IMG/VR virus record: IMGVR_UViG_2526164662_000035
Coordinates: 1-19,618 of that record
Reading direction: 5' to 3' (one strand)
Length of the DNA stretch: 19,618 nucleotides
DNA from: a virus
Taxonomy: Duplodnaviria; Heunggongvirae; Uroviricota; Caudoviricetes
Positions 1 to 16,837 of the stretch are shown here, in pieces. Every line of letters starts with the position of its first letter. The stretch's first letter is position 1. The position numbers and the translations under genes were made by a program. Under the pieces are notes generated by a model. It saw only the letters and a list, made by a program, of their open reading frames with translations, had not been told where the DNA came from and did no database searches.

Positions 1-852
1 AAGAATCCGTTTGGTGATATCAAATCGGATGGCACGGTGAAAACGGCTCTCGAAAACCTTGATTTAACGGACCTGGGTATCGGTAAAAATATCTCTGGTT
101 CTAACATTAACTTGCTTTCGAGCGCAACAAGTTCTGGTTTTTATGCATACGGCGGTAATACAGACCCGGATTTTGGGATTGATTACGGAATGGTGCTAAC
201 GTTGTTGTATGATTCCGTATCAAAACAACGAGTGCAGATTTATCTTCCGCTAGCAAATTCTGCTGGAGCAACACCAATCATTCGTGCTGTAACCGGCAAC
301 ACTACGATTTGGAAGTATAAGCTCTTTTCTGAAAAATATAAGCCAACGCCAGCAGATGTGGGGATGGGGTCTGGTGCGCCAGCTATCGGTGTCCCATTCT
401 TCTGGCCCTCCGCAGCAATGCCGAATACGGTCATAAGCGAATGGTCTGACATGGTGTTTTTAAAATTTAACGGCGCGTCATTTTCTGCTGCGGTATACCC
501 CAAACTTGCACAGGTGTTCCCTGGACTTACACTTCCCGAAGCTCGAGGCGAATTCCCGCGTATCTGGGATGATGGTCGTGGGGTCGATTCAGGAAGGGCA
601 TTGCTGAGTACTCAGGTGGATGCCATCCGAAATATCACTGGTGAAGTCGGTATTGTTCAATATTTTGGGAATACTACAAATTCTGGTGCGCTTTATTCTG
701 GGGGGGCACAAAACTTAACGAACCTCCAGCCAGGCGGAAGCACTGTTGCTCAAAGTATTCTCTTCAGCGCTGGAAAAGACCCATCGGTATCAATTGCAAA
801 CGAGAACCGACCGCGCAACATCGCATTCAATTTCCTGGTGAGGGCAAAGTAA
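1..852 (+). CDS. Phage (side) tail fiber protein, C-terminal part; 5' end lies outside the window
   Basis: Frame 1 is open from nt 1 to TAA at 850-852. The C-terminal region (FFWPSAAMPNTVISEWSDMVFLKFNGASFSAAVYPKLAQVFPGLTLPEARGEFPRIWDDGRGVDSGRALLSTQVDAIRNITGE) has the hallmarks of the phage tail-collar domain. Its stop overlaps the start of the downstream tfa-like gene (TAATG). Confidence 0.85.
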   Translation, partial: KNPFGDIKSDGTVKTALENLDLTDLGIGKNISGSNINLLSSATSSGFYAYGGNTDPDFGIDYGMVLTLLYDSVSKQRVQIYLPLANSAGATPIIRAVTGNTTIWKYKLFSEKYKPTPADVGMGSGAPAIGVPFFWPSAAMPNTVISEWSDMVFLKFNGASFSAAVYPKLAQVFPGLTLPEARGEFPRIWDDGRGVDSGRALLSTQVDAIRNITGEVGIVQYFGNTTNSGALYSGGAQNLTNLQPGGSTVAQSILFSAGKDPSVSIANENRPRNIAFNFLVRAK

Positions 853-1187
853 TGAAACCTGTCTTTGATGAAAATGGTCTGGCAACGCAGGCCGGTGATA
901 TTCGTTGTTTTTATTACGATGCAGTGACCATGGAATATGCTGGCTGGTCAGATGAATATATTAACGCTGGCGTCAGCATGCCGGGTAATTCAACAGATGT
1001 TGATCCAGGTGAAATGGTTGATGGAAAGGTTTTTATGTTCACGGGCATCGGATGGCGACAGGATGAAGATCATCGTGGTGAAACGGTATATTCAACCGAT
1101 GATACCTCATCTTCCACTATAGATTATATCGGCCCAGTCAGGAAGGGGTACACAACTGTTGCGCCATCAGGACCATATCAAAAGTAG
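852..1187 (+). CDS. tfa: Tail fiber assembly protein (Tfa), N-terminal 111 aa, ending at an in-frame TAG
   Basis: ATG at 852 overlaps the tail fiber stop. The product ends ...EDHRGETVYS...SGPYQK, matching the conserved mid-region of lambda-type Tfa chaperones (...EDHRGKTVY...GEYQKW...). At 111 aa it is about 80 aa shorter than typical Tfa proteins. Confidence 0.8.
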   Translation: MKPVFDENGLATQAGDIRCFYYDAVTMEYAGWSDEYINAGVSMPGNSTDVDPGEMVDGKVFMFTGIGWRQDEDHRGETVYSTDDTSSSTIDYIGPVRKGYTTVAPSGPYQK

Positions 1188-1442
1188 GGACGGCAAAAAG
1201 TAGGGTAACGAGATACTGACACACAGCACGTTGCCGATGTTGAAGCCGCTGAACAGAAGAAGGCTGCGTTACTGGCTGAAGCGCAGGATAAAATAAGTCT
1301 CTGGCAGACAGAATTGCGACTGGACATCATCAGTGATGGGGATAAGGAAAGTCTGATTGCGTGGGTGCAGTACATAAAAGCCATTCAGGCTATAGATACT
1401 TCATCTGCGCCAAATATCAACTGGCCCACCGAACCAGAATAG
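1188..1442 (+). pseudogene. tfa: Tfa C-terminal conserved domain, in the same frame as the N-terminal part but cut off by TAG (1185-1187) and TAA (1206-1208)
   Basis: Same frame as 852-1187. Codons 1209-1439 translate to RDTDTQHVADVEAAEQKKAALLAEAQDKISLWQTELRLDIISDGDKESLIAWVQYIKAIQAIDTSSAPNINWPTEPE, the typical Tfa C-terminus (...LLAEA...W..Y...L..VDTS.AP.I.WP). No start codon of its own. The two stops sit in an imperfect 14-15 bp tandem repeat (caaaagtaggga / caaaaagtagggta). Confidence 0.65.
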
Positions 1443-1589
1443 GAACGTTTGGGGAAGAGTTAGATTAAGGGATGAACTAATTGATGATTAATGCTTTTAA
1501 TTACAAAAGTGTAACTGGAGGTGTATTATTATAAAATAAAAAACGAAGCGTGAGAAGGGGCAAAATAGACAATGGCAGCGCTTTTTATT

Positions 1590-1618
1590 TGTGCTTTGAG
1601 TGTTTAACTCAAAGCACA
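1590..1618. terminator. Perfect 12-bp stem hairpin (TGTGCTTTGAGT-gttta-ACTCAAAGCACA) in the intergenic region, possible bidirectional terminator
   Basis: Perfect inverted repeat read directly. T-rich on the upstream + side (gcgctttttattt) and moderately T-rich downstream. Lies between the tfa remnant and the 3' end of the minus-strand acyltransferase. Confidence 0.35.
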
Positions 1619-1871
1619 TGTTCTAAATTATTTACTTTCGTATTTAAGGGGGTTAGGTTATGACCATTTGGTCAAACAAAACGTTTTAAAAATTCTGCGA
1701 TGGGTTTTTCTATGTACATATGAATGACGCTGCCAGGCGCACAAACTTATTATAAAGTATATTCCAATATATAGGAATACATTGGAATAATCAATAAGTC
1801 CGAAAGACACAAACATATATGATACCCAAGCTGTAATCAAACCATGCGTCAAATATATACTATATGAAGCA

Positions 1872-2764
1872 TCACCGACGGAAAATAATAAGTTTAGCCG
1901 GTTTTATTTTACCTTCAAGGCTCAACGCTGCCCAGACACCATAAAAAGCGAAAAACCCCCATATCAAAGGACGATGCCATTCCCCCCCCATGTTTGTTGT
2001 AATATTAAAGTATTCACATAATAAGAATGTGGGAATAAACAAAGTTAATATTGTAAGCGCAATTGTTTTTTTTAACATAGCGCCCAGTAAGTATAATCGA
2101 TACATAAACATACCCATAGCAAATACGACCATTTCTGGTCTTGCCAGTGTTTTCATGAACGGAAGAATTTCGAATATGATGCTGTTATTTTGATAAGTTA
2201 AAATATTAGCTACTATGGATATAGTTAAAAATAAGATCTCTATATACTCTAACCTTGATAATTTGATAGCAATAAAAAATGCAAAAGAAGTATAAAACAA
2301 AAATTCAAGTTGTAATGTCCAACCTATACTTAGAATTGCATCGCGATGCCAGTGAGTGAATGTAATACTCTCAAGATACCATTGAAGACTGATTTTTGTT
2401 TCGGGCCACCAATAAGCAATAGGTGGAGTTGGGGAAGATATATAATGTTTTACTATGAAGGCTGATAGAACGCAAAGGGCGGTAATTAAAGCATATACCG
2501 GGATTATTCTTATTACTCTTCGCATAAAAAAGTTCCCTGCAGATATTTTGAATTCTCCTTCTGATTGAGAGCCACCATATGCTACGTAAGGTATAATAAA
2601 CCACTAATTATGAAAAATATAATAACGCCAAATCCTCCCAGAGATGCAAGGATTTCGATATTCCCAATGCCATATTGTCCAAGTTCGGCATGTGCCAAAA
2701 CCACCATAGCTGCAGCAATAAACCTTAGTGCTTGTATATTGAAAAGCGTTTTTCTTTTATTCAT
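1872..2764 (-). pseudogene. Acyltransferase family 3 (OafA/Oac-like, O-antigen acetyltransferase type) membrane protein, frameshifted near 2525-2585
   Basis: ORF 2582-2764 starts MNKRKTLFNIQALRFIAAAMVVLAHA...FFIISGLLYLT (typical acyltransferase-3 N-terminus). ORF 1872-2525 in another frame carries the signature RRVIRIIPVY and is strongly hydrophobic. My translation shows the second frame is open upstream to a stop at 2604-2606, so the break is a single frame shift around 2580-2590. The hydrophobic ORF 1658-1852 may be a further degraded 3' piece. The region is markedly AT-rich compared with the flanking tail genes. Confidence 0.7.
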
Positions 2765-2880
2765 TTATATACTGACCCAATTTTGTAATTATGAAACTTT
2801 AATTGATAAGGTAAGCATACTAAATAACTGATAAAAATAATAGATCAATTGAAGGGAACACAATCAGGGTTGTGCCATCT

Positions 2881-3176
2881 GCTAAACTCCAAATATTAAA
2901 AATCACTAATACCAGAGCACTAATGGGGCTCTCCATGATGTACTGGGGACAATTGGACAAAATGGAAAGGGAAATGATTGTTGAGCGAACGCAGGCGGGA
3001 TTAGCTGAGCACTCACTGGAGGTTGGATAGGTAGCCGTAGGCCAAACCTAACAGATGAACAATGGGCGCAGGCCGGGCGATTAATTGCATCAGGCGTTCC
3101 TCGCCAGAAGGTGGCGATCATCTATGATGTTGGTATATCGACACTGTATAAGAAGTTTCCGGTCGGAGATAAATGA
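2881..3176 (+). pseudogene. DNA invertase (Gin/Pin/Hin/Cin family serine recombinase), C-terminal remnant with a -1 frameshift and no catalytic N-terminal domain
   Basis: Frame 1 (2923-3030) reads MGLSMMYWGQLDKMEREMIVERTQAGLAEHSLEVG*. Frame 0 (3021-3176) reads GWIGSRRPNLTDEQWAQAGRLIASGVPRQKVAIIYDVGISTLYKKFPVGDK*, nearly the same as the Gin/Pin C-terminal HTH region (GRIGGRRPKLTPEQWAQAGRLIAAGTPRQKVAIIYDVGVSTLYKRFPAGDK, recalled from memory). The N-terminal ~120 aa with the catalytic serine is absent. Confidence 0.8.
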
Positions 3177-3236
3177 AACCGTAGCACGTCGTATGCAAGA
3201 AGATCGTGCTGCGGTTTATGCTTATCACTTAAAGAC

Positions 3237-4106
<870 letters not shown>

Positions 4107-4190
4107 CTAACCCTTTGAATTTACATAGCGCAAAAAGATACCTTTCCTCATAATGTGAGCTAATTTTATGTTTCGTTTGATGATCGGGTC

Positions 4191-4251
4191 GGTCTCGAAA
4201 ACCGGAGTAGGGGCAACTCTACTGGGGGTTCAAATCCCCCTCTCTCCGCCA
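4191..4251 (+). other. 3' fragment (61 nt) of tRNA-Ser(CGA), serU-like; att remnant, probably the prophage attR
   Basis: ggtctcgaaaaccggagtaggggcaactctactgggggttcaaatccccctctctccgcca: anticodon loop CUCGAAA, long variable arm, T-loop GTTCAAATC, acceptor 3' strand plus CCA. The 5' acceptor strand and D-arm are not present upstream, so this is not an intact tRNA gene. Confidence 0.8.
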
Positions 4252-4826
4252 CTTTATCAATGACTTATCTCCCGACTTCCCGCCTTGCTTTTCCTAAACA
4301 GAACAATCGTAGAATATTCTTGAAGGGTTAGATCGTCACTGTTTTCTGTTCGATACTGTGACATTCAGCACTTGATTCGCTATGGATCTGACAGGAAGGT
4401 TTCGAGCGAAAATCTGCAGTTATTCAGTCGTTTTCTTATCGGTCACCATTATTCTTTTAGACATTGATCCTACAAAGCTGCCGCAAAGTTGGTGGTGGGA
4501 ACTGAAGTTGCGTAGAGAAGGGGTCAATACCCGGAGGCACACATGGGCTGGCAAAAGTGTAGCGGTATTAGGCGCAGCTATTTAGCCTAGTTATGTTTTA
4601 TGAAAACTTGATATCATATAAGTGTCTTACTTATTGGCTGTAAATAAGTTTTTCCTAAGGAATTGTTTCTTGAGTATCATTTGTAACTGTAACGGAATTT
4701 ATAATCCTTTGCTTTATTGTTACGGTATTTTTTATCACACCCTATTTTTTATGTGGTTTTTTATACTGAAGTTTGGCAAAGTGAACTTTATATGCATATA
4801 CTTCATCCTGGTTTCAGTTAAATTGG

Positions 4827-5579
4827 GTGGATGATATGGCAACTACATGTTCAGTTATATTGATTTTGGAGTCCTTTGATATTTATTTCGGAAAAGAGAG
4901 TGTGTTTCTGGAGAGAGGTTCATCTGTACTTGTCGACTCTAGCTCTAGAGATTTTTTCCTGACATATCCTGAAAGAGTGATAGTGGCGGATTTTGGCGCT
5001 GAGTTTATTAGTCGCTATTTGAAAGCTAATAACTTAAGGGATATTTCTGATTGTAGGGAATATCCATCTTATTTAAAAATAAACTTTGCTGACTTCAGTT
5101 TAATTAAAGGATTAATTAGTTGGGCTAATCACTGTGCTGAATACATAGAAATTTTTGATGAGTCTATTGCTTTTACATGTCTCTCTGCATTTTCTTCTGA
5201 AAAACAATTTGGAGTATTTCTGTTTGGATGTTTGAAAAGCACAGGGGCTAAAGTTAAAACGATTATTCATACGGATTTATCTGCACCATGGCGTCTTAAG
5301 GATATATCATCAAGATTATATCTCAGCGAAAGTTTACTAAAGAGGAAATTGAAAGAAGAGGGGATATCATTCAGTAAGATCATACTTGATGAGAGGATGC
5401 AAATGGCTGAATATTTACTCAGCACTCGTTGTTATCCTATTAGTAAAGTAGCTAAGGTCTGTGGTTATGCCAGTGTCTCATACTTTACTTATGTATTTAG
5501 ACGTTATTTTGGTGTTTCTCCAAGTCAATACTCTCAGAGGAGTTCAGAAAGTAAAATTCTTACTCACCAGGGAATCTGA
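4827..5579 (+). CDS. AraC/XylS-family transcriptional regulator (AppY/GadX/Rns-like; low GC)
   Basis: C-terminal double-HTH signature: ...LSAPWRLKDISSRLYLSESLLKRKLKEEGISFSKIILDERMQMAEYLLSTRCYPISKVAKVCGYASVSYFTYVFRRYFGVSPSQYSQR. About 250 aa, like AppY-type regulators. The ATG at 4836 has better spacing to GGTGG and may be the true start. Confidence 0.85.
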   Translation: MDDMATTCSVILILESFDIYFGKESVFLERGSSVLVDSSSRDFFLTYPERVIVADFGAEFISRYLKANNLRDISDCREYPSYLKINFADFSLIKGLISWANHCAEYIEIFDESIAFTCLSAFSSEKQFGVFLFGCLKSTGAKVKTIIHTDLSAPWRLKDISSRLYLSESLLKRKLKEEGISFSKIILDERMQMAEYLLSTRCYPISKVAKVCGYASVSYFTYVFRRYFGVSPSQYSQRSSESKILTHQGI

Positions 5580-5584
5580 TCATT

Positions 5585-5850
5585 GTTCTTGCCCCCTTAT
5601 TTCCAGACAGGGGGTGTATCTTAAGTTAACGTTACCCGCTGACGTCGATATTCTCGCGGAGAGCGATAACCCAACGCACTGTGCGGATGGTTTTCATTGT
5701 AATGTTCGATCGCCACTGCAAGATTATGCAATGCCGTTCTTACATTCGGTTTCGGCATGAACGCGATGTAGTCTTCCTTCATCGTTTTCACGAATCTTTC
5801 TGCCATTCCATTACTCTGAGGACTGCTGATTACCCATGAGGAGTACAATT
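5585..5850 (-). mobile_element. Truncated IS2-like (IS3 family) element: 3' end of the orfB transposase plus the terminal inverted repeat
   Basis: Minus-strand ORF 5621-5848 translates to ...[63 protein letters not shown], the C-terminus of IS2 OrfB. Beyond its stop the minus strand reads ...CTGTCTGGAAATAAGGGGGCAAG, matching the IS2 terminal repeat (TGTCTGGAAATATAGGGGCAAATCCA, from memory). Only ~265 bp of the IS is present, abutting the AraC gene stop. Confidence 0.8.
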
Positions 5851-6068
5851 AAACGGGTTAATCAGTTTCTCCATTTGAAAGAAAAAAGACTTCTGTACTG
5901 TTTGATATCACCGCTATTTTCTTATTTTCTGTGCAGGTCGTAGTGGGACAAAACTGAGACACATAAGGCCTCACAATGGCTTGCAAGGCTTTACATGTTT
6001 TGATGTGGTGGGACGTGTGAGCGCAGTGTTGATGGGGTAATACTTTGAATTAGAAGCGGATTCTTATG

Positions 6069-6114
6069 ATTCGTAATGCGAAGGTCGTAGGTTCGACTCC
6101 TATTATCGGCACCA
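6069..6114 (+). other. 3' fragment (46 nt) of tRNA-Thr (thrW-like); att site
   Basis: attcgtaatgcgaaggtcgtaggttcgactcctattatcggcacca matches the 3' 46 nt of E. coli thrW including CCA. The 5' half of the tRNA is not present upstream. A 46-bp thrW core is what I recall for P22-type attachment sites. Confidence 0.85.
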
Positions 6115-7424: not shown

Positions 7425-7982
7425 TTACGCTTCCTGCTCTTTCTTGATACGTTGCACCGTCTGTGTGCTGACACTGAAATCTTTTGCTACGCTCCGAATT
7501 GATCCACCATTCGCGAGAGCGGCAACAATTCCCGCTCGATCAATTGCTTTTCCATTACCACGTTTTGCTATACGTCCAGCGGCCTTAGCTGCGGCAATCC
7601 CCTCACGTTGCCGCTCAAGCATCATTTCACGTTCCATTTGTGCCACTGCTGCAAGCACTGTGAGCATCATATTCCCTGCGGGAGAGTTCTTCCCTGTCTT
7701 AAAGTCTTCTTTATGGAAATGCACAGACACGCCGCGCTCTGTTAATTGCTCAACCGTTGCCAGTAGGTCGGCTGTATTACGGCAAAGTCGATCAATGCTG
7801 TGAACATGCAAAACATCACCTTCACGCACATAGTTCATCATTGCCTCAAACTGTGGGCGCTGGGTATTCTTGCCTGACGCTTTATCTTCAAAGACTTTAT
7901 CAAGAGTTACTCCAGCTAATTGACGGTCTGTGTTTTGTTGGACAGTCGATACCCTAATGTATCCAATATTAGCCATTTTCAT
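7425..7982 (-). CDS. Small serine recombinase (resolvase/invertase family, 185 aa)
   Basis: N-terminal catalytic motif GYIRVSTVQQNTDRQ with the conserved Ser, a central ...DRLCRNTADLL... segment, and a C-terminal HTH (GGSIRSVAKDFSVSTQTVQRIKK). Length and layout match gamma-delta/Tn3 TnpR-type resolvases. GGAA lies upstream of the ATG. Confidence 0.9.
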   Translation of the reverse strand: MKMANIGYIRVSTVQQNTDRQLAGVTLDKVFEDKASGKNTQRPQFEAMMNYVREGDVLHVHSIDRLCRNTADLLATVEQLTERGVSVHFHKEDFKTGKNSPAGNMMLTVLAAVAQMEREMMLERQREGIAAAKAAGRIAKRGNGKAIDRAGIVAALANGGSIRSVAKDFSVSTQTVQRIKKEQEA

Positions 7983-7990
7983 TTTCCTTC

Positions 7991-8107
7991 TGTGTTGATT
8001 TGTGTGTAGTGATTATTGATCGTGTTGATTAGGTGTGTAAATGACTTTTTTCACTACGAAATTCGAAGGTTTTTAGTGTGGTGATTTAGCCTGCTTTATC
8101 ACTACAC
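7991..8107. promoter_or_regulatory. Cluster of GTGT(A/G/T)G(T)GATT motifs in both orientations just upstream of the serine recombinase; candidate res/operator site
   Basis: TGTGTTGATT (7991-8000), GTGTAGTGATT (8004-8014), GTGTTGATT (8022-8030), GTGTGGTGATT (8077-8087), and inverted ATCACTACAC (8098-8107) and TCACTAC (8051-8057). Multi-subsite res sites sit immediately upstream of resolvase genes in Tn3-family systems. Confidence 0.4.
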
Positions 8108-8504
8108 GTCTTGCATGAGAATCATGTAGTTATGCTTTGGTAAAATTAGCAAGCTATTAAATAGCGTGTTTATTTTGAAAAAATTAATTTTTTCAACACG
8201 TGAAAGGAACTTGTTCGACAAATAATAGATTGATTTTTAATCAACAATTTCTGATAGTGCTCTGTAAGCCACATTACACAAGGCGCAGCGAAAGTGATGT
8301 AAAAGTGAAGAAAGCTAACATTGCACTTTTAAGCTACTTTTCATTGAATTTTTAGTATGGAATTACATAGGGATTAATCATCAATTAATCTTGAATTTAA
8401 GCCTGTTTTAGATGTTTAATTTTTGATAGCAAGAAACACTTTTAGAAGATCATTGCACAGATGTTATGTGATAAATGGATGTAACGGTAGGTCACTGTGA
8501 ACTA

Positions 8505-8640
8505 CCCCCCACAGAATTCTGTTATCCTTAACTTTTAAAGAAATATGCACCCTAACAGAAAACTGTTACCCCAACCCTAACAGAATTATGTTAGACACCC
8601 CCACAGAAAACTGTTAGCCACCCCTACAGAATTTTGTTAC
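8505..8640 (+). repeat. Array of five phased iterons, each a palindrome CCC-(T)AACAG-N4-CTGTTA, spaced ~23 bp (first one 44 bp upstream)
   Basis: Copies centred on ACAGAATTCTGT (8511-8522), TAACAGAAAACTGTTA (8553-8568), TAACAGAATTATGTTA (8578-8593), CACAGAAAACTGTTA (8602-8616), TACAGAATTTTGTTA (8625-8639). ACAG start positions 8511, 8555, 8580, 8603, 8626. Each is preceded by a short C-run. An AT-rich tract follows at ~8641-8720. Confidence 0.8.
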
Positions 8641-9135
8641 CTATTAGATCAACTATCAAACTACAATTAAATTATCTTTTATAAATTCTTTTATCTTTAA
8701 AGAATAATTATAGGGATACCCGTTAGGGGAGTCTTCGACTATCCCTTAATCTATTGGCATTCGCCAGAACCTTGCACAAGTTAGAGTGTTAGTCGTTAGA
8801 CTGCTTGTCATAACACATAGTTTTTTGTTTGTTGATGTTAGTTAGTAGATCTATGTTCGCTAATGCCGCTCACAACGAATATGTAATCTACTATGTGCAA
8901 ATAGCCTACGGCTTGCGTAAGGCTAAATAGTCTTGCGCTGTGCGCAGAACGATAATTAACTAACTACCATCTAACGATCATCAATCTATTTAAGAGAAAA
9001 TCTATTGTGCAATACTCTGACGAGTGCAATAACCTTGTGTGCTACGCGTTAGCGATGTTAGCACATAGACACAGACAACAACCAACAACAAACAAAAAGA
9101 ATGGTTTTAGTAGTTGAAGGTTAAATAAGATTCTA

Positions 9136-9365
9136 CCGCTTAAATCAAGCCGTAGGCGAGCTAAACGTATATAAGGTAGGGAAACACTTAGCGGTAATAG
9201 ATTAGCTCGTTATAGAGTTTCTGAGAGCTTTGCAGGTATTTTATAAGATGTCTGAAATTAGATTTTATCTATCATCATCTTCCCATATACCTAACAAATA
9301 CAAAATAACCCCCTTAAATAAGCCTCTGGCGAGCTAAACAGCCATTACATAAGGGAATGTATTGT
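9136..9365 (+). repeat. Two copies of a ~45-bp imperfect direct repeat (CTTAAAT-AAGCC-N3-GGCGAGCTAAAC...ATAAGG..GGGAA) about 173 bp apart
   Basis: 9136-9187 cgcttaaatcaagccgtaggcgagctaaacgtatataaggtagggaaa versus 9309-9365 cccttaaataagcctctggcgagctaaacagccattacataagggaatg. A tandem GCGTTTTAGA x2 follows at ~9388-9407. Confidence 0.6.
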
Positions 9366-9500
9366 TTTTATCAAAACCTCGTTAGAACGCGTTTTAGAGC
9401 GTTTTAGACAATAATAAAGAATAGCACTACACATGAGAGCACGAATTGCTAAGAAATATCATAACTTACTGAAAATGATCAATATTTATATGGATAGGGG

Positions 9501-9529
9501 TTGACAAAAGCTTTTAGTCGTGGTAAAGT
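9501..9529 (+). promoter_or_regulatory. Sigma70-like promoter candidate (TTGACA-17 bp-TAAAGT) upstream of the early small-gene cluster
   Basis: TTGACA at 9501-9506, 17-nt spacer, TAAAGT at 9524-9529. The first gene of the cluster starts at 9650 with a strong AGGAGG ribosome-binding site. Confidence 0.3.
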
Positions 9530-9649
9530 AATATTAGGGACAGAAAACATTCTTATCCTCTAAGTAATTAAACCAATGCACCGCACTTTGAAGCCCAAGG
9601 CTTGCAAGGTGTCTTTTTCTTTTAACCAAATAGAATAGGAGGTTAATTA

Positions 9650-9850
9650 ATGAAGTATTACACTCCACAGGATGTAATCGAAGCCTGGAAACGTGGTGAG
9701 ATCAATCGTTTTAAAGTAAGGATGAACAGGAACACAGCGCGACGCTGTGGTTATCCAGAGCGTGAAAAATGCTTTGACGATGCACTAAAAATTATTGATG
9801 AATTAAGAAAAAATGAAAAAGGATCTGAAAAAGAATCTGAAACAGAGTAA
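9650..9850 (+). CDS. Hypothetical small protein (66 aa)
   Basis: Strong ribosome-binding site (aggaggttaattaATG). Charged product MKYYTPQDVIEAWKRGEINRFKVRMNRNTARRCGYPEREKCFDDALKIIDELRKNEKGSEKESETE. First gene after the 1.7-kb noncoding region. Confidence 0.5.
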   Translation: MKYYTPQDVIEAWKRGEINRFKVRMNRNTARRCGYPEREKCFDDALKIIDELRKNEKGSEKESETE

Positions 9851-10040: not shown

Positions 10041-10093
10041 TTTTTATCACCATAGTAGCGCCGTAGAGCGTGATTACATCAAGGAGATTTTTA

Positions 10094-10663
10094 ATGATTA
10101 ATGAAGAACAATTTGTAAAAGTTCCTATGTGGATTCTAAAAATAAGCCAAGTAAACGGGCATAAATTTACAGATAGTGCTAAAAACCTTTACTGCTATTT
10201 GAGAGGGTTTGATCGTGCATTTCCCTCTTACGCTAAGATAGGCGATGTTTTTGGCATAACACCAAGAGCAGCAGAAGAAAGGGTTAAGAAATTGCTCGAA
10301 ATGGGATTAATTATAAAAGATGCACGACCAGGAAGCTCTAACCTTTATCGAGTGCTTGATATTCCAAAAGGAGAATCATCACTACCTGATCCTTCTGAGA
10401 AAGAAGACGAATCTAATGAAATATTGAATGTTTCCGAAATCATCGTTGAAGAAGAAACACAGGAATCAGAGTTCCCTGAGCGGCCCGAAATTTTTACTTG
10501 GCTTCTTTCCCTTGATAAGAAGAAACCACCGCACGAAGAAACAGAAGATTTTGTAAAACGTGCATTAGATTCAAAGAATATCTATCTTGAGAAACAGGCT
10601 TTTCACGATCTGATAATATCTCTAAGAGAAAAAAGTGAAATATACGATTCAATACCATTCTAA
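10094..10663 (+). CDS. Winged-helix DNA-binding protein with an acidic C-terminal region; candidate replication initiator or iteron-binding protein
   Basis: ATG at 10094 with AAGGAG 7 nt upstream. N-terminal region MINEEQFVKVPMWILKISQVNGHKFTDSAKNLYCYLRGFDRAFPSYAKIGDVFGITPRAAEERVKKLLEMGLIIKD resembles the winged-helix N-terminal domain of phage/plasmid replication initiators. Function is inferred. Confidence 0.45.
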   Translation: MINEEQFVKVPMWILKISQVNGHKFTDSAKNLYCYLRGFDRAFPSYAKIGDVFGITPRAAEERVKKLLEMGLIIKDARPGSSNLYRVLDIPKGESSLPDPSEKEDESNEILNVSEIIVEEETQESEFPERPEIFTWLLSLDKKKPPHEETEDFVKRALDSKNIYLEKQAFHDLIISLREKSEIYDSIPF

Positions 10664-11991: not shown

Positions 11992-12734
11992 TAATGAAAA
12001 TCATTTGCATTTATATAATAAAAATGTTATATTTGTATTAAGGGTAGATAAAAAGGTTTTGACTGGTGTTAATCCTTCTACTGTCATAAATCCCTGCATA
12101 TGGAAGGTGATAGCCTCAAGGGTTGAGTGGCATTAACCTCTAACAAATATTACCTTCCATCTCTCAAGAAGTTTTAGAATAATCATAACTCCCTCTTTGA
12201 TTGTTGATTGTTTCTACGTTGTGTTGATGAATGTTGTTAGGCATTGTGCTTAATTTTGATAAAAGCGGGTAGGTGTTATCTCCTTGCCCTTCCCGCTCTT
12301 ATTTTTCATCTATGCTTATCCTAAAGCTCCTTATTTTGTCCGAAAACATTAAAGAGCCTTACACTGATAGTTATATTTTATAACTATTTACTAACATCAT
12401 TAAACTCTTATTTAATGACAGAAGTTAGTAACAGAATAATCTATTAAGTTGTTGTCAAAAAACTATCATCTGCATAGCGTTAGCCGCAAGCAGAGAGAGT
12501 TTAGCTAAGAATTGTGCAATAACCTTTGGAAATATTGATAGCAAAACGGGTTTTATAGACTGCAAATCTATAATCTTTGGTTGTAAAAACGCTTTTTCTG
12601 AAACGGTAGATTATTGTTGGTGTAGTTAATCCCTATTAAAATTTAATCTGTGAGTAGATTGGAATAGTGATTCCTTAAAATCTGACTGGTGCATCCACAC
12701 CATGAAAGATAGCGGTTAGCCACCGCACCCGAAT

Positions 12735-12790
12735 AGATATTCCTGATTGATTCCGCATGTTTTCCTAAGAGCATGTTTTCAGGAATATCT
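12735..12790. repeat. Perfect 12-bp inverted repeat AGATATTCCTGA ... TCAGGAATATCT around a 32-bp spacer containing GCATGTTTTC twice
   Basis: Read directly: 12735-12746 and 12779-12790 are exact reverse complements. The spacer holds the direct repeat GCATGTTTTC x2. Confidence 0.7.
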
Positions 12791-12897
12791 GTTCACCCTT
12801 TAAACCTATCTTTAAGCATGTTTAATAAGCATTCTTAGAGATACGTTTAAAACCTCCTCAAGGTTTTACTTATCGCTGTGTATTGCCCGACACGTTA

Positions 12898-12950
12898 ATA
12901 AATCCCCCTCGCTATTCTCAGATTGAACCTCTTATAGCCTGGGGGATTTA
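12898..12950. repeat. Perfect 10-bp inverted repeat TAAATCCCCC ... GGGGGATTTA around a 33-bp spacer, just upstream of the structural cluster
   Basis: 12898-12907 and 12941-12950 are exact reverse complements. Lies ~30 bp upstream of the ORF starting at 12983. Confidence 0.6.
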
Positions 12951-12982
12951 TTAAATTCCAACATAATGGAATCGTTATATAA

Positions 12983-13192
12983 ATGAAACAAGAAATTATC
13001 CTGAAATATGGCAATGAAAAGTTAACACTAACTGAAGATGTGTTGAATGCTACAGCCTACGCGCTTGGTATCACTCCCACAGAATTAAAGAAACAGTGTG
13101 AACGTCTTTATAAGGCTGAAAGCAATAAACCATCTCACCAAGATTTGATTAATGCTAAAGCTCAACAAATCAAACAATCTAAGGAAAAATAA
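12983..13192 (+). CDS. Hypothetical small protein (69 aa), first gene of the structural-type cluster
   Basis: ORF whose stop overlaps the next start (TAATGG). Confidence 0.45.
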   Translation: MKQEIILKYGNEKLTLTEDVLNATAYALGITPTELKKQCERLYKAESNKPSHQDLINAKAQQIKQSKEK

Positions 13193-13582: not shown

Positions 13583-14611
13583 ATGATTATCGGAAATGAA
13601 GTGGTTGATCTTGCTCCACTGTTCGAATTAAACGACTCACGCAATTACCTACTGTCTACTCTGGATTTTACTGATCCTGTGCCTGTAGAAAGTCACAAAG
13701 TGGCTGTTTCCCAGCTTATCGAGAGCAATGAATCTCTGTTCAACCATCCTACAAGCCGTTTTAGCTCTGAGCATAACGTTACTAAGCGTGAGAACGGGGA
13801 AGAATATCTTATTGAAATCCCGTACTTTTTAAGGGAAGACCTGATCAAACCGCAGGACGTGCAAGGCAAACGCAAAGCCGGAAGCTCTATTGAAGAAACA
13901 CTGCCGGATCTGTATGCGGAATATATCGCTAAACACAATGTTGCATTCCAGCGCACTAAAGAAAGCATCCTCGCGGCTTCTCTGTTCTCTGGCAAGACAC
14001 ACACCCCGAAAACTGACGATGTTCTGATCGATTACAGCACTCTGTTCGGTGTGTCTCCAATGACTGCAACCGTTGACGCATCCAGCACCAACACAATGAC
14101 CGTATTCAAGCAATTTGATCAGATGCATACGGATATGATTGCTAAGGCACAAAGCCAGGCTGCAACCATTGAGCGTGTTGTTGTGTTCTGTAAACCTGCG
14201 GCATTCAACGCTATTCGTTACAGCGTTGGCATGGTTAATGCGTTCCAGTATGCAAGCCCTGTAGACGATGCAAACGTGGTGTTTAATGTGCGTTCTCTGC
14301 TGCCTGGTGTAACTACTTTCACCATTCCAGGAACTAACATTGACCTGATCAAAGTGACTGATCCGCTGCTGCTGGCACATATGACCGCTGACGCTGTAGC
14401 TATTCCTAAACTTGCTAAGGGGGCAGGTGTTTACCAAGCTATTTTTGGTGCGCCTTCCAGTTCATTCGATCTGCTGTCTCAAGGCGCTAAAGAGTATTAC
14501 AGCTATGCTTTCGAATCGAATCGCGGCGACGCAGTGCACGTAGTGACCGAGAATAGCTCGCTTGTGGTTAACCACGGTGTTGGCTTCTCTGTGCAGATCA
14601 CAGTAGCGTAA
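13583..14611 (+). CDS. Putative major capsid protein, lambda gpE family (342 aa)
   Basis: GAAGGA ribosome-binding site. Length matches lambda gpE (341 aa). Local matches to gpE as I recall it: HKVAVSQLIE vs EKVYLSQIPG near the N-terminus, and C-terminal GFSVQITVA vs EFVSVQLA. Needs profile confirmation. Confidence 0.55.
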   Translation: MIIGNEVVDLAPLFELNDSRNYLLSTLDFTDPVPVESHKVAVSQLIESNESLFNHPTSRFSSEHNVTKRENGEEYLIEIPYFLREDLIKPQDVQGKRKAGSSIEETLPDLYAEYIAKHNVAFQRTKESILAASLFSGKTHTPKTDDVLIDYSTLFGVSPMTATVDASSTNTMTVFKQFDQMHTDMIAKAQSQAATIERVVVFCKPAAFNAIRYSVGMVNAFQYASPVDDANVVFNVRSLLPGVTTFTIPGTNIDLIKVTDPLLLAHMTADAVAIPKLAKGAGVYQAIFGAPSSSFDLLSQGAKEYYSYAFESNRGDAVHVVTENSSLVVNHGVGFSVQITVA

Positions 14612-14995: not shown

Positions 14996-16837
14996 ATGTT
15001 AGAGCTAAACGTGGCACGCCTCTCGAACGTTGTCACCTTCGAAGTTAACCGACCATCATTAGAGAAAGCAAAAGCAGAAGTAGAAAAACTTCGTAAACAA
15101 ATGGCGGCGGTGAAAGATATAGAATTGCGTGTTAAGACACATAAACAATCAACCGCTAAAGCAAAAAAAGACGTAGACGATATTGCTAAAAAGCAAGCAC
15201 AGGCTGATAAAGCTAATGCTAAAGCACAATTAGCCGCTCAACGTGTAGTTGCAAGAGAACAAAAAGCCCTGGCAGCACGCAAAGAGAAGGCAGAATTAAA
15301 GCTTTTAGACGTTGGAGCAAGCATTAGTGCAATGCACCGTCTTTCTGTAGCGGAACAATATAAAGCTATTGCACAGGCTAGAGAAATTGCCCTCCAATAT
15401 GAAAGAGGCGCTATTAGTCTGGCACGTATGAATAGCCAAATGAAACGCCTACAACAGCAACAACGTAAGATTAATGGCAATCGTAACGCTCACGCTAAAG
15501 CCTATGCACCTGTTAAGGGTAGCGGGAGTATTGGCGGCGGTGCTGCGGCTGTTATGCTGGGTGGCTTAGGCGCTGGCGCTACGTATATGGCTATGAGCAA
15601 AGCCTCTGAATTTGTTACTAACAGCTTTGCGAATGCTGAAACGCTGGGTGAATTGTATAGCCGTGCGAAGCTGGGCGGTGTAGACGTTAACCAGATGAAC
15701 AATATTGAGCAATGGGCCTACAAAAACGGCGTTGATTCAATGATGGGCGAACAAGGTCGTAGGAAGTATCTCGATCAGATGAAAGATGTACGGGAGAAGG
15801 CTACTAAATCTTATGATGAGGCTGAATATGTAGTTGATAAGAAAACTGGTAAAGGAGAATGGAAGGGCGGCGATAGCGGCATCAATACTTTAATGAATGA
15901 AGGATTCCTAACTAAAAAGGATCTAAAAGACTTTGCTGATAATCCGGCTGGTCTGGTTAGTAAAGCAGTTCAGGGAATGGTAGCTAAAGGCTATTCAGAT
16001 GCACAAATCGGTAGTCGTCTGGAAGATCTGGCTGATGATTTGATGCTCACCTCTAAATACTGGACACGCTCCGCTAAAGAAGTGGAACAATCAGCACGAG
16101 AACAACGAGAATCAGGGCGCTGGGTAACGCAGGCACAACAGGAAAGCGTTATTAAATTCCGTGAACTGAATAATGCACTTAGTGGGCTTTCTGACTCACA
16201 AGGGATCGCCTTTGTTGATGGCTTTATGAAATCTCTTGATCCGAAAGTGATTGAAGAGTTTAAAAAGAGCATGGTTGCAATGCTGCCAATGTTTACCAAA
16301 TTAGGCGAGGCTATCGGCGGATTGGTTAACGCCGTAATGAAAACAATCAACTGGCTGATGAAAAACGACGAGAAGACGGAAGCTATTCAGAAGAATTTAG
16401 GGGATGCACCGCCACTATCTAACGAAGGAATGAAGCAGAATCTTTCTAATCTCACTCCTGATCAATATAAAGGCGCTGGCACCGGAACAACTAAGCCAGA
16501 TAACAGCAATTCCCTGGTTAACACTATTAAAAGCTGGTTTATGCCAGAAGAAACGGTAGGTGGGGCGCAGGCTGTAAATCAATACAGTCTCGAAGGACAA
16601 AATATTGCAAATCTGAAACAGAGTGCAGCACAACAAGCTTTCAAGGCTCCTTCTTACACCTTTGCACCTGTTATTAACTTCAATCCAGAATTACAAGTAA
16701 ATGCAGAAGTGCCGCTAACTATCGAATCAGACACCGGACGATTGAGCGAATTTATCGACTTCAAATCAAAGGCATCTTCCGCTGAGTTTAGCAAGCTATT
16801 AACGCTGGGTGTTATGTCAGGCGGGTCAACCTATTAA
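14996..16837 (+). CDS. Large coiled-coil protein (613 aa) with a Gly/Ala-rich hydrophobic segment; candidate internal virion, scaffold or ejection-like protein
   Basis: N-terminal ~170 aa are Lys/Ala/Gln/Glu-rich heptad-like sequence (KAKAEVEKLRKQMAAVK...KKQAQADKANAKAQLAAQR...), followed by GSGSIGGGAAAVMLGGLGAGATYMAMS and a ~400-aa C-terminal region. No Walker A motif, so not a terminase or helicase. Confidence 0.55.
   Translation: MLELNVARLSNVVTFEVNRPSLEKAKAEVEKLRKQMAAVKDIELRVKTHKQSTAKAKKDVDDIAKKQAQADKANAKAQLAAQRVVAREQKALAARKEKAELKLLDVGASISAMHRLSVAEQYKAIAQAREIALQYERGAISLARMNSQMKRLQQQQRKINGNRNAHAKAYAPVKGSGSIGGGAAAVMLGGLGAGATYMAMSKASEFVTNSFANAETLGELYSRAKLGGVDVNQMNNIEQWAYKNGVDSMMGEQGRRKYLDQMKDVREKATKSYDEAEYVVDKKTGKGEWKGGDSGINTLMNEGFLTKKDLKDFADNPAGLVSKAVQGMVAKGYSDAQIGSRLEDLADDLMLTSKYWTRSAKEVEQSAREQRESGRWVTQAQQESVIKFRELNNALSGLSDSQGIAFVDGFMKSLDPKVIEEFKKSMVAMLPMFTKLGEAIGGLVNAVMKTINWLMKNDEKTEAIQKNLGDAPPLSNEGMKQNLSNLTPDQYKGAGTGTTKPDNSNSLVNTIKSWFMPEETVGGAQAVNQYSLEGQNIANLKQSAAQQAFKAPSYTFAPVINFNPELQVNAEVPLTIESDTGRLSEFIDFKSKASSAEFSKLLTLGVMSGGSTY

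What the first reader, a model, noticed from the sequence alone, without database searches (positions are those of the whole stretch)
7983..9649. 1.7-kb ORF-free, repeat-dense region between the recombinase and the early genes
No ORF of 60 aa or more on either strand across ~1.67 kb. Besides the iterons it holds a ~45-bp imperfect direct repeat (9136-9187 and 9309-9365, core GGCGAGCTAAAC), a tandem GCGTTTTAGA x2 (~9388-9407), a 7-bp stem inverted repeat TGTGCTA-N14-TAGCACA (~9037-9064), an inverted repeat TAGTAGAT...ATCTACTA (~8845-8893) and a low-complexity CAACAA tract. That density of structured repeats suggests noncoding RNA(s) and/or recombination and replication control sites rather than decayed coding sequence.
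Basis: seen in the sequence. Interest (0 to 1): 0.5.

Follow-up and report, generated by a model that had tools for sequence, protein, structure and literature searches.

The report
Island replication origin and control region
The 1.7-kb gene-free stretch is the non-coding control centre of a ~13-kb phage-satellite-like island found in about one in seven complete E. coli genomes: it holds the island's replication origin, the promoter and built-in stop signal of its main operon, and a hairpin-rich part whose role is still open.

Summary

The stretch is a mosaic of five modules:
- A (7983-~8212) travels with the serine-recombinase gene.
- B (8213-8503) is a conserved AT-rich spacer.
- C (8504-8750) is five iterons, an AT-rich tract and a hairpin. 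In 24 related loci, three iteron types match three N-terminal types of the O-like initiator (10070-10663) without exception, so this is its cognate origin.
- D (~8750-9290) is hairpin-rich. One hairpin keeps its shape through three double compensatory changes. 440 other genomes carry an unalignable but even more self-complementary version in the same slot.
- E (9291-9649) is common to all variants. It holds the only strong sigma-70 promoter, a covarying 5' hairpin and an invariant intrinsic terminator 27 nt before the first gene's ribosome site.

The tandem GCGTTTTAGA motif recurs almost exactly in gene-free DNA of T5-like and Stephanstirmvirinae phages.

There is no Rfam match and no coding relic. 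I found no description in the literature searched. A long structured RNA across D is possible but not shown. The overall architecture is ordinary. The D module and the phage-shared motif are the open, interesting parts.

The parts
7425..7982 (-). Small serine recombinase gene (185 aa) that bounds the region on the left.
   Evidence: Pfam Resolvase 1e-38 plus a C-terminal HTH, and phrog_125 'DNA invertase' 2e-62. It is about equally close to Tn3/gamma-delta resolvases (1e-27) and Gin invertase (7e-25) among solved structures.
7983..8212 (.). Module A: recombinase-linked segment with the recombinase promoter (TTTACA-18-AATAAT, 8041->8012 on the - strand) and dyad motifs (GTGTAGTGAT 8004-8013; GTGTGGTGAT-N12-ATCACTACAC 8076-8107; TTCACTAC 8050-8057). 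Candidate recombination (res-like) site.
   Evidence: Promoter-like site. The segment is present only where the serine recombinase gene is present. It is replaced wholesale where a 192-aa tyrosine recombinase (L094, L095, L097) or a 183-aa unknown protein (L087, L088, L103) occupies the slot. The dyads were read from the sequence. Site function is inferred.
8175..8196 (.). 22-bp perfect palindrome TTGAAAAAATTAATTTTTTCAA at the A/B junction.
   Evidence: It is unique in the window. It is perfect only in the window, L093 and L101. Most relatives read TTGAAAAAATAATTTTTTGTTG, and the right half matches a different haplotype, so it sits on a mosaic junction. It is probably not a conserved site.
8213..8503 (.). 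Module B: conserved AT-rich spacer (31.6% GC), common to islands with any or no recombinase. It carries ATTGCAC (8320-8326, 8452-8458) and CATTACAYARGG-type short repeats.
   Evidence: 76-96% identity in all relatives, including L005 and L106. GTGCAAT occurs 9 times in the window against 3.7 expected, and 4 of them lie in this 1.67-kb region. Function unknown.
8504..8642 (+). Module C: five ~23-nt iterons, CCCYAACAGAAnnnTGTTA.
   Evidence: The cassette is replaced by two other iteron types in relatives, in perfect step with the initiator's N-terminal type in 24 loci.
8643..8750 (.). AT-rich tract (about 8643-8706) and GC-cored hairpin (8707-8750) that complete the origin unit.
   Evidence: It is conserved next to all three iteron types. 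In L094 and L095 it is duplicated together with a fourth kind of iteron, so it behaves as one unit with the iterons. There is one A:U->G:C compensatory change in L097. The hairpin is deleted in L091.
8751..9134 (+). Module D, left part: array of hairpin modules, each starting (T)GTGCAA(A)T. X1 runs 8891-8945 and ends in GCGC-TGT-GCGC. X3 runs 9005-9065 and ends in the 9038-9065 hairpin. The part also holds nested inverted repeats and the CAACAA tract.
   Evidence: Fold z -3.35 / -3.75. Nested inverted repeats I4, I5, I9 and I23. Hairpin 9038-9065 has 3 of 9 pairs changed on both sides, is 100% paired, and 0 of 500 shuffles reach its score. A ~100-nt paralogous module (X2) is present in L001, L003, L004, L086 and L094 and absent here.
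9135..9166 (+). Direct repeat copy 1, ACCGCTTAAATCAAGCCGTAGGCGAGCTAAAC. It is the most conserved stretch of module D.
   Evidence: It is 98% conserved across window-type loci. 9156-9164 pairs with 9202-9210 in the consensus fold, where the pairs are invariant.
9167..9307 (+). Segment between the direct repeats, with hairpins that fold only on the + strand (for example 9233-9254).
   Evidence: The consensus fold is -20.8 (+) against -11.5 (-) kcal/mol for 9151-9268. Hairpin 9233-9254 gives -4.3 on the + strand and 0 on the - strand. The changes seen are GU<->GC/AU only. The whole segment is missing in L101 (99.9% identical island) and L105 through a deletion between the repeats, so it is dispensable.
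9308..9339 (+). Direct repeat copy 2, at the start of the universal core.
   Evidence: It is present in every variant, including L005 and L106. 9324-9331 pairs with 9380-9387 in three haplotypes (GU,GU / GC,AU / GC,GU).
9382..9409 (.). TTAGAACGCGTTTTAGAGCGTTTTAGAC, which includes the tandem GCGTTTTAGA x2. This motif is shared with large virulent phages.
   Evidence: 27 of 28 nt are identical to gene-free DNA of T5-like phages: Sw2 (inside the terminal repeat), KPN4, T5_ev212, EC148, TrudiRoth and others. The same motif occurs in the Stephanstirmvirinae phages KP13-26 and KP2025. One repeat unit is lost in L089 and L091.
9501..9529 (+). Early promoter, TTGACA-17-(TG)gTAAAGT.
   Evidence: It is by far the best sigma-70 match in the region on either strand (score 14.1; the next is 9.6). 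The -35 hexamer is invariant and a -10 hexamer is kept in register in 17 distinct sequences while the spacer varies.
9535..9623 (+). Leader: a 5' hairpin (9535-9555), a single-stranded linker, and an intrinsic terminator (stem 9583-9612, then UCUUUUUCUUUU to 9623).
   Evidence: In the 5' hairpin, 2 of 5 pairs change on both sides and 3 by GU<->GC; 0 of 500 shuffles reach the score. The outer terminator stem is invariant in 17 sequences with two G-U pairs on the + strand, and its inner stem loses one base on each side in the other haplotype. Stability is -15.5 kcal/mol, z -2.8.
9638..9850 (+). Ribosome site AGGAGG (9638-9643) and the first early gene (66 aa), bounding the region on the right.
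10070..10663 (+). Initiator-like protein (197 aa) that matches the iterons. It lies outside the finding but belongs to the system.
   Evidence: Weak Pfam HTH_36 match. PHROG matches: 'replication initiation protein' 1e-8 and 'replication initiation O-like'. Its N-terminal ~100 aa exist in three unalignable types, while the C-terminal part (from 10370) is 91-99% identical in DNA across all loci.

Best explanation
The stretch is the cis-acting control region of a ~13-kb integrative, phage-satellite-like island. The island runs from the partial tRNA-Thr repeat at 6068-6113 to a degenerate repeat at 19057-19078. The region is a chain of exchangeable modules, read left to right.

1. Module A: the promoter of the small serine recombinase, and probably that enzyme's own target site. 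Only the co-inheritance with the gene is shown; the site function is inferred.
2. Module B: an AT-rich spacer.
3. Module C: an iteron-type replication origin, made of five iterons, an AT-rich unwinding tract and a hairpin. The island's lambda-O-like initiator (10070-10663) recognises it through its variable N-terminal domain. The specificity pairing is shown; origin firing is inferred.
4. Module D: about 0.6 kb of hairpin modules. They are most likely read as single-stranded nucleic acid of + sense, either RNA or the lagging-strand template, or are bound by a protein that recognises the GTGCAAT-type repeats. Its function is open.
5. Module E: a core common to every variant of the island. It contains a 28-nt motif shared with T5-like and Stephanstirmvirinae phages, then ~95 bp further a strong constitutive sigma-70 promoter. 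Its transcript starts with a hairpin and meets an intrinsic terminator 27 nt before the first gene's start codon.

By default this should give a ~85-90-nt RNA and keep the early operon (which includes the initiator) shut. Read-through, and hence replication, would need an antitermination or activation signal, most plausibly supplied on infection by a helper phage. That last step is inferred.
For: Island context.

Mosaic structure:
- Breakpoints fall at ~8190/8212, ~8385-8508, 8655 and 9291.

Origin:
- The iterons are unique and significant.
- Three iteron types match three initiator N-terminal types in 24 of 24 loci, while the C-terminal domain is shared.
- The iteron, AT-rich tract and hairpin are duplicated as one unit in L094 and L095.
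- PHROG assigns the protein to replication initiation / O-like families.

Promoter, leader and terminator:
- There is a single outstanding promoter.
- The -35 hexamer is invariant, the 5' hairpin covaries, and the terminator is invariant with + strand G-U pairs, a paired indel and a U-run.

Module D:
- Fold z-scores are -3.4 to -3.8 here and -6.1 to -6.9 in the alternative version.
- Hairpin 9038-9065 shows compensatory changes.
- Stability is + strand biased in 9151-9308.

Not coding.

Phage-shared motif.
Against: - There are no expression or replication data.
- The initiator-like protein has only weak family matches (HTH_36 below the Pfam cut-off; no solved relative). It could instead be a repressor whose operators are the 'iterons'.
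- The origin lies ~1.4 kb from its initiator gene, unlike lambda, where ori is inside O.
- There is no DnaA box in the region.
- No promoter was found that would transcribe module D.
- Covariation in 9105-9430 is not above its shuffles. In the alternative D version, about half of the variable predicted pairs are broken in some sequence.
- Individual D modules are gained and lost between near-identical islands, so they are not individually essential.
- The recombination site is not identified.
- The palindrome at 8175-8196 is not conserved.
Confidence: 0.62

Rival explanations
1. Module D and the core up to ~9420 encode one long (0.6-0.7 kb), highly structured + strand non-coding RNA of a family not yet described. 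It would act as a regulator, scaffold or decoy in the island's dealings with a helper phage.
For: - Strong excess of self-complementarity in two unalignable versions that occupy the same slot.
- Compensatory changes in hairpin 9038-9065.
- Many conserved G-U pairs, and GU<->GC/AU changes that preserve pairing only on the + strand.
- + strand-only hairpins.
- No Rfam family matches, so it would be new.
Against: - There is no convincing promoter upstream on the + strand. The only strong promoter lies downstream of the segment.
- No terminator closes the segment.
- Covariation over 9105-9430 is not above shuffles.
- The 12-bp complementarity between 8904-8915 and 9145-9156 is broken independently in L094 and L097 without compensation.
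- Modules come and go (X2 insertion; the 9167-9309 deletion in an island 99.9% identical).
- In the alternative version no pair is doubly compensated, and 10 of 21 variable pairs break.
Confidence: 0.22
2. The hairpins of module D work as single-stranded DNA. When the origin fires rightwards, the + strand is the lagging-strand template, and the hairpins would serve as priming or primosome-assembly signals (ssi / pas-like) for an island that encodes no primase or helicase.
For: - They sit immediately to the right of the iteron and AT-rich origin.
- The structure is + strand biased.
- No helicase or primase was recognised among the island's genes.
- Established knowledge: ColE1, F, R6K and RSF1010 carry such signals beside their origins.
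Against: - There is no sequence match to known ssi/pas elements. A single AAGCGG hexamer on the - strand is at chance level.
- 600 nt is far more than known ssi signals need.
- The direction of replication is unknown.
Confidence: 0.1
3. The region, or its core, carries signals copied from a helper phage, such as a packaging, injection or regulatory site. These would let the island be recognised by, or sense, T5-like or Stephanstirmvirinae phages.
For: - The 28-nt motif at 9382-9409 recurs at 1 mismatch only in gene-free DNA of these phages.
- In T5-like phages it lies in the terminal-repeat 'Repeat Region 3', the proposed injection-stop region, which is itself a 1.2-kb untranslated maze of repeats and palindromes with TGTGCAAATCCGACA repeats (bioRxiv 10.1101/866236).
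- The island's capsid and 613-aa tape-measure-like proteins have their nearest phage relatives in Stephanstirmvirinae.
Against: - Only ~28-40 nt are shared. The protein similarities are remote (25-30% identity).
- The DnaA boxes that define the T5 region are absent here.
- The motif's function is unknown in the phages.
- The motif is partly lost in L089 and L091, and its first unit has diverged in a whole haplotype group.
Confidence: 0.15
4. The recombinase is a DNA invertase and part of the region is an invertible switch.
For: - The best PHROG hit is named 'DNA invertase'.
- A Fim-sized tyrosine recombinase replaces it in some islands.
- A 22-nt inverted repeat flanks 8844-9076.
Against: - No inverted configuration was seen in 25 related loci.
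- The recombinase is slightly closer to resolvases.
- Islands without any recombinase keep modules B-E.
- The candidate motif at 9424-9431 is not conserved in other recombinase-bearing loci.
Confidence: 0.04
5. The stretch is decayed coding sequence or junk spacer.
For: - It has an AT-rich composition.
- Its nucleotide identity between islands is no higher than that of the flanking genes.
- Modules are gained and lost.
Against: - No frame stays open beyond 55 codons and no fragment matches any protein family.
- The iteron/initiator pairing, the conserved promoter and terminator, and the compensatory hairpin changes show function for most of it.
Confidence: 0.04

Closest known systems
Lambdoid ori / O protein, and iteron origins of phage-inducible chromosomal islands (SaPI/PICI ori with Rep)
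   Same: Several ~20-nt iterons lie next to an AT-rich tract. They are recognised by a small initiator whose N-terminal domain sets specificity, while the C-terminal domain is shared. Iterons and the N-terminal domain are exchanged together between relatives (the comparison with lambda and PICIs rests on established knowledge).
   Different: The origin is not inside or directly beside the initiator gene but ~1.4 kb upstream of it, separated by module D and the early promoter. The protein is short (197-245 aa), has only weak family matches, and the island has no recognisable helicase or primase partner.
Promoter-proximal termination control of phage and satellite operons: lambda pR'-tR' (6S RNA, Q antitermination) and the P4 PLE leader (CI RNA immunity)
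   Same: A strong, apparently constitutive promoter is followed within ~90 nt by an intrinsic terminator ahead of the operon, so a short RNA is the default product. As in P4, short repeats (9135-9166 and 9308-9339) lie nearby.
   Different: No Q-like or other antiterminator was recognised in the island. The C4/CI-type RNA family of Rfam does not match. The direct repeats lie upstream of the promoter, not in the leader, so a P4-style seqA/seqB/seqC mechanism is not evident.
res site / resolvase modules of Tn3-family transposons and plasmids
   Same: A 185-aa serine recombinase gene has its promoter and dyad-symmetric motifs in the ~230 bp upstream. Gene and upstream segment move as one cassette.
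   Different: The three-subsite res architecture was not demonstrated. The slot can hold a tyrosine recombinase, an unrelated gene or nothing.
T5 'Repeat Region 3' / injection-stop (iss) region in the terminal repeat
   Same: It is a >1-kb untranslated stretch packed with direct repeats, inverted repeats and palindromes. It shares a 28-nt motif and a TGTGCAAAT-type repeat start with this region.
   Different: The paired DnaA boxes that define the T5 region are absent. Everything else is unrelated in sequence, and the context is an integrated island rather than a phage terminal repeat.

Membership tests
Iteron-type replication origin with cognate initiator | Three or more directly repeated ~17-24-nt sites in helical register. 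| tested here: met
   Five copies at spacings of 44, 25, 23 and 23 nt. The pattern occurs nowhere else in the window, and 0 of 200 shuffles match the count.
Iteron-type replication origin with cognate initiator | An adjacent AT-rich unwinding tract. | tested here: met
   8643-8706 is almost pure A/T and is conserved next to all iteron types.
Iteron-type replication origin with cognate initiator | Iteron sequence is specific to the element's own initiator. | tested here: met
   Three iteron types match three N-terminal types of the 197-245-aa protein in 24 of 24 loci. This shows co-inheritance, not binding.
Iteron-type replication origin with cognate initiator | The sequence supports initiator-dependent autonomous replication. 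| not testable with these tools
   This needs a replication assay.
Iteron-type replication origin with cognate initiator | Host-factor sites (DnaA boxes) as in many plasmid origins. This feature is not universal. | tested here: not met
   TTWTNCACA does not occur in 7983-9649.
Intrinsic (Rho-independent) terminator / leader attenuator | A stable GC-containing hairpin directly followed by a U-run, downstream of a promoter and upstream of the gene. | tested here: met
   Stem 9583-9612, -15.5 kcal/mol, followed by UCUUUUUCUUUU. It lies ~50 nt after the predicted start and 27 nt before the ATG, and is invariant in 17 sequences. The simple scanner missed it because of a bulged G.
Known RNA families (Rfam 15), including C4/CI-type phage antisense RNAs, group I/II introns, tRNA and tmRNA | Covariance-model match at the gathering score or at E<=5. 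| tested here: not met
   No match at gathering score in the whole window. Only two chance-level eukaryotic hits appear at E<=5 in 7900-9750. ARAGORN finds nothing.
Structured non-coding RNA (generic) | Base pairs maintained by compensatory changes beyond what relatedness gives. | tested here: inconclusive
   Met for hairpin 9038-9065 (3 of 9 pairs) and the leader hairpin (2 of 5). Not met for 9105-9430 or for the alternative D version. All sequences come from E. coli and fall into a few haplotypes.
Structured non-coding RNA (generic) | Evidence of transcription (promoter, transcript). | tested here: inconclusive
   There is a strong promoter for the leader RNA only (9501). None was found for module D. 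No expression data were available, and literature searches found none.
res / resolvase or invertase switch | A small serine recombinase with a catalytic domain and a C-terminal HTH. | tested here: met
res / resolvase or invertase switch | Defined recombination sites: three subsites in res, or two inverted crossover sites flanking a segment found in both orientations. | tested here: inconclusive
   Dyad motifs exist in 8004-8107 (read), but no res architecture was established. No inversion was seen in 25 loci.
T5-type injection-stop repeat region | Paired DnaA boxes within large inverted repeats in a phage terminal repeat. | tested here: not met
   There is no DnaA box. Only a 28-nt motif is shared. 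The definition is from bioRxiv 10.1101/866236.

The most novel reading that the evidence does not exclude
Module D, in its two unalignable but equally hairpin-rich versions, together with the phage-shared 28-nt motif, forms a new kind of helper-sensing or helper-interfering device. It would be either a large structured RNA or a structured DNA array. Through it, an undescribed and very common family of E. coli satellite-like islands would detect or exploit large virulent phages (T5-like or Stephanstirmvirinae), opening the leader terminator and firing the origin.
Probability: 0.15. Interest if true: 0.8.

Novelty: new member of a known kind. Interest (0 to 1): 0.5.

Why it matters
Islands with this control region are in 732 of 5426 complete E. 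coli genomes, including O104:H4 and STEC lineages, yet the whole stretch is unannotated and I found no description of the family.

Knowing that it holds a cassette-type origin gives a concrete handle for testing whether these islands are phage satellites and which phages induce them. The features that make this testable are:
- exchangeable iteron and initiator specificities, which suggests incompatibility avoidance between co-resident islands (up to four matching places were found in one genome);
- a terminator-gated early operon.

The hairpin-rich module and the motif shared with the enigmatic untranslated repeat region of T5-like phages are the parts that could teach something new, both about the islands and about what that motif does in the phages.

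Tried and rejected
1. Rfam, at gathering score for the whole window and at E<=5 for the region, found nothing. ARAGORN found nothing.
2. DNA inversion: blastn of 25 related loci shows no segment in the opposite orientation.
3. Relatives outside Escherichia:
   - The genome-contig scan with the recombinase returned only unrelated contexts. One Citrobacter locus (L009) has similar layout but no sequence similarity.
   - The initiator family is essentially Escherichia/Shigella only.
4. I first assumed the window's left part was gpt-proA-thrW, as in strain CAU16175. That was wrong. Window 1-6060 is the end of another prophage, and only a partial tRNA-Thr repeat is present.
5. The 22-bp perfect palindrome as a crossover site: it is not conserved and lies on a mosaic junction.
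6. The long-range pairing 8904-8915 / 9145-9156 (12 perfect bp) is broken without compensation in L094 and L097.
7. A P4-like seqA/B/C scheme: the repeats lie upstream of the promoter and there is no C4/CI match.
8. DnaA boxes: none.
9. Coding relics: none.
10. Literature on CP-933H/Sp1-type elements, EcOnc sRNAs and protein accessions gave no information on this region.
11. TGTGCAATAACCT as an enriched 13-mer is not significant at 3 mismatches. Only the 7-mer count is suggestive.
12. Substitution analysis of the alternative D version: variable sites are rarer in predicted stems (21 of 442 against 56 of 464 columns). The consensus-folding step biases this, and no double compensation was seen.
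Full report
**Where the window comes from**

The finding region is 99.8% identical to E. coli CAU16175 (NZ_CP047378.1). At lower identity it is present in 732 of 5426 complete E. coli genomes, almost always on the chromosome. No feature is annotated under the match in any record. Phage records do not contain it, and the two plasmid-collection hits are a chromosome mislabelled as a plasmid and one 166-kb plasmid.

It lies in a ~13-kb island, which contains, in order:
- a partial tRNA-Thr 3' repeat (6068-6113);
- a small serine recombinase on the - strand (7425-7982);
- the gene-free stretch;
- a rightward operon of small genes that includes a 197-aa O-like initiator (10070-10663);
- a second gene-free kilobase (11992-12982);
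- a lambda-E-type major capsid protein, a 613-aa tape-measure-like protein and a Dit-like protein;
- a tyrosine integrase on the - strand (17643-19007);
- a degenerate copy of the tRNA repeat at 19057-19078.

Window 1-6060 belongs to another prophage. My first assumption that it was the proA-thrW flank was wrong. Related islands sit at thrW, tRNA-Gly, tRNA-Leu and inside the thiM TPP riboswitch. One of them (L005) is only ~7.5 kb and has no capsid gene, yet keeps the recombinase, gene-free stretch and initiator block.

**The observation**

It is confirmed.
- The longest ORF is 51 aa and the longest stop-free run is 55 codons.
- Lack of an ORF >=60 aa is what 36% of random sequences of this composition show. 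The stretch therefore simply looks non-coding.
- The repeats, by contrast, are far beyond chance.

**Anatomy by comparison**

I compared 25 related loci by blastn and MAFFT. This splits the stretch into five modules with sharp mosaic breakpoints.

Module A (7983-~8212) occurs only together with the serine recombinase gene.
- It holds that gene's promoter-like site (8041->8012) and dyad motifs.
- Where a 192-aa catalytic-domain-only tyrosine recombinase, or an unrelated 183-aa gene, occupies the slot, A is replaced and homology resumes at 8190-8213.
- The STEC island L106 has no recombinase at all and nearly 3 kb without a gene.
- I infer that A carries the recombinase's own site, as res does for Tn3-type resolvases. 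The enzyme is marginally nearer to resolvases than to invertases, and no inversion was seen in any locus.
- The perfect 22-bp palindrome at 8175-8196 is an accident of a mosaic junction.

Module B (8213-8503) is a conserved AT-rich spacer of unknown role.

Module C is the best-settled part. The five iterons (8504-8642) are replaced in relatives by two other iteron families: ACCTAGGAAATGAGTTCCTA and TGTAACGAnnGGTTACA.
- The N-terminal ~100 residues of the initiator-like protein exist in three unalignable types.
- The DNA of its C-terminal part is 91-99% identical everywhere.
- Iteron type and N-terminal type agree in all 24 loci where both could be read.
- The AT-rich tract and the hairpin at 8707-8750 follow every iteron type. 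They are duplicated together with a fourth iteron kind in L094 and L095.
- This is the logic of lambda ori/O and of PICI origins, by established knowledge. PHROG places the protein among replication-initiation / O-like families. The Pfam match is below cut-off, and no solved relative exists.
- Binding and origin firing remain to be shown. A repressor/operator reading is not excluded.

Module D (about 8751-9290) is the puzzling part.
- 8700-9200 folds better than every shuffle on both strands (z -3.35 and -3.75).
- It consists of hairpin modules that begin (T)GTGCAA(A)T. Relatives add a paralogous ~100-nt module or lose pieces.
- Hairpin 9038-9065 is replaced in another haplotype by a different sequence with the same two-stem shape. 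Three of its nine pairs change on both sides, it is 100% paired, and no shuffle reaches the score.
- Between 9151 and 9308 the consensus fold is about twice as stable on the + strand. It is rich in G-U pairs and in GU<->GC/AU changes. That points to a + sense single strand.
- Against this, the formal covariation test on 9105-9430 is not above its shuffles.
- 9167-9309 is missing from an island that is otherwise 99.9% identical (L101), through recombination between the two 32-nt repeats.
- No sigma-70 promoter that could transcribe D scores well.
- In 440 genomes the slot is filled by an unalignable sequence (L005/L106 type). It is even more self-complementary (z -6.1 and -6.9 over 500 nt, -3.1 over the next 330) and has its own short repeat, GTGTAATT. 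Within-type divergence there is too low for covariation.
- So 'hairpin-rich' is the conserved property. Whether it acts as RNA, as single-stranded DNA at the fork, or as a protein-binding array cannot be decided here.

Module E (9291-9649) is shared by every variant.
- It starts with direct-repeat copy 2, whose CUCUGGCG pairs with CGUUAGAA 50 nt downstream in three haplotypes.
- The region's only outstanding promoter follows: TTGACA-17-TAAAGT with an extended -10 at 9501-9529. The -35 hexamer is invariant across 17 distinct sequences.
- The transcript would begin with a hairpin that covaries. It would end at an invariant terminator, -15.5 kcal/mol plus UCUUUUUCUUUU (9583-9623), 27 nt before the start codon at 9650.
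- The default product should be a ~85-90-nt RNA. The early operon, initiator included, should need read-through. This resembles pR'-tR' of lambdoid phages and the P4 PLE leader in layout, but no antiterminator or C4/CI-type RNA was recognised.

**An unexpected link**

- In T5-like Demerecviridae it lies in the untranslated repeat region of the terminal repeat, beside paired DnaA boxes and a run of TGTGCAAATCCGACA repeats (Sw2, KPN4, T5_ev212, EC148 and others). This is the 'Repeat Region 3' discussed as the injection-stop signal (bioRxiv 10.1101/866236).
- It also occurs in the Stephanstirmvirinae phages KP13-26 and KP2025. That group holds the nearest phage relatives, at 25-30% identity, of the island's capsid and tape-measure-like proteins.
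- The island region has no DnaA box.
- The motif's function is unknown even in the phages. As a 10-bp-spaced direct repeat ~95 bp upstream of the early promoter, it is a reasonable candidate for a site where a host or phage protein signals infection. That is speculation.

**Verdict**

Most of the stretch is explained by ordinary functions arranged as exchangeable cassettes: recombinase control, an iteron origin matched to its initiator, and a terminator-gated early promoter. It is not decayed coding sequence and matches no known RNA family. The island family appears undescribed in the literature I could search. The hairpin-rich module and the phage-shared motif deserve experiments.

Noticed in passing
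window 11992-12982: There is a second gene-free kilobase between the early genes and the capsid operon. It ends in a strong terminator-like inverted repeat (12895-12915 / 12934-12954, 21 nt, 90% complementary) just before the 69-aa gene at 12983. It also contains an exact TGTGCAATAACCT (12513-12525), like the motif at 9023-9035. The late operon may be terminator-gated too.
   Followed up: partly
window 1-6113 and 19057-19078: The left 6 kb of the window is the end of a different prophage (tail fibre, tail fibre assembly, acyltransferase). The island starts at a partial tRNA-Thr 3' repeat (6068-6113) and has a degenerate copy at 19057-19078. The two elements therefore sit in tandem at thrW. ARAGORN and Rfam find no complete tRNA in the window.
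   Followed up: yes
L094/L095/L097 (e.g. L095 893-1471, - strand); L087/L088/L103 (e.g. L087 707-1258, + strand): The slot of the serine recombinase is taken in some islands by a 192-aa tyrosine recombinase that is little more than a catalytic domain, followed by a 71-aa ORF. In others it is taken by a 183-aa protein with no Pfam match. These are alternative small recombinases at one position in otherwise homologous islands.
   Followed up: partly
L005 4953-5048 and 12685-12781: A ~7.5-kb minimal relative has an integrase, an HNH endonuclease, an HTH protein, the recombinase, the gene-free stretch and three small genes, but no capsid genes. It is flanked by two annotated TPP riboswitches upstream of thiM, so it seems to integrate into the riboswitch and duplicate it.
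   Followed up: no
L094 2345-2672, L095 2175-2501: These islands carry two origin-like units in tandem. The first is a fourth iteron kind (GGGGGGTGTCGGTCACGATGACTG, one or two copies) with its own AT-rich tract and a 97% copy of window 8691-8763. The ordinary type-2 iterons follow.
   Followed up: partly
L101 5456-5486, L105 1904-1934 (window 9167-9309 missing): Recombination between the two 32-nt direct repeats has removed 143 bp in an island otherwise 99.9% identical to the window. This natural deletion shows that the segment is dispensable.
   Followed up: yes
L106 11389-14351: In an STEC genome the homologous island at thrW has no recombinase gene and nearly 3 kb with no annotated gene. 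It contains module B, iterons, the alternative D version and the common core.
   Followed up: partly
window 13583-14611 and 14996-16837: The island's major capsid protein and its 613-aa tape-measure-like protein have their nearest phage relatives (25-30% identity) in ~145-150-kb E. coli and Klebsiella myoviruses of the Stephanstirmvirinae (phiWec188, phAPEC8-like, KP13-26). The island has no terminase or portal. This hints at which phages might be helpers or targets.
   Followed up: partly
window 8476-8500: TGGATGTAACGGTAGGTCACTGTGA, just left of the type-1 iterons, is a degenerate copy of the type-3 iteron (TGGATGTAACGATGGGTTACAT). It is kept in islands of types 1 and 2, so it is either a relic of cassette exchange or a shared site.
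   Followed up: no
H2 (NZ_CP126938.1 40181-43171) and H57 (NZ_CP182154.1): IS3-family and IS903B insertions interrupt the homologous gene-free stretch in some genomes.
   Followed up: no
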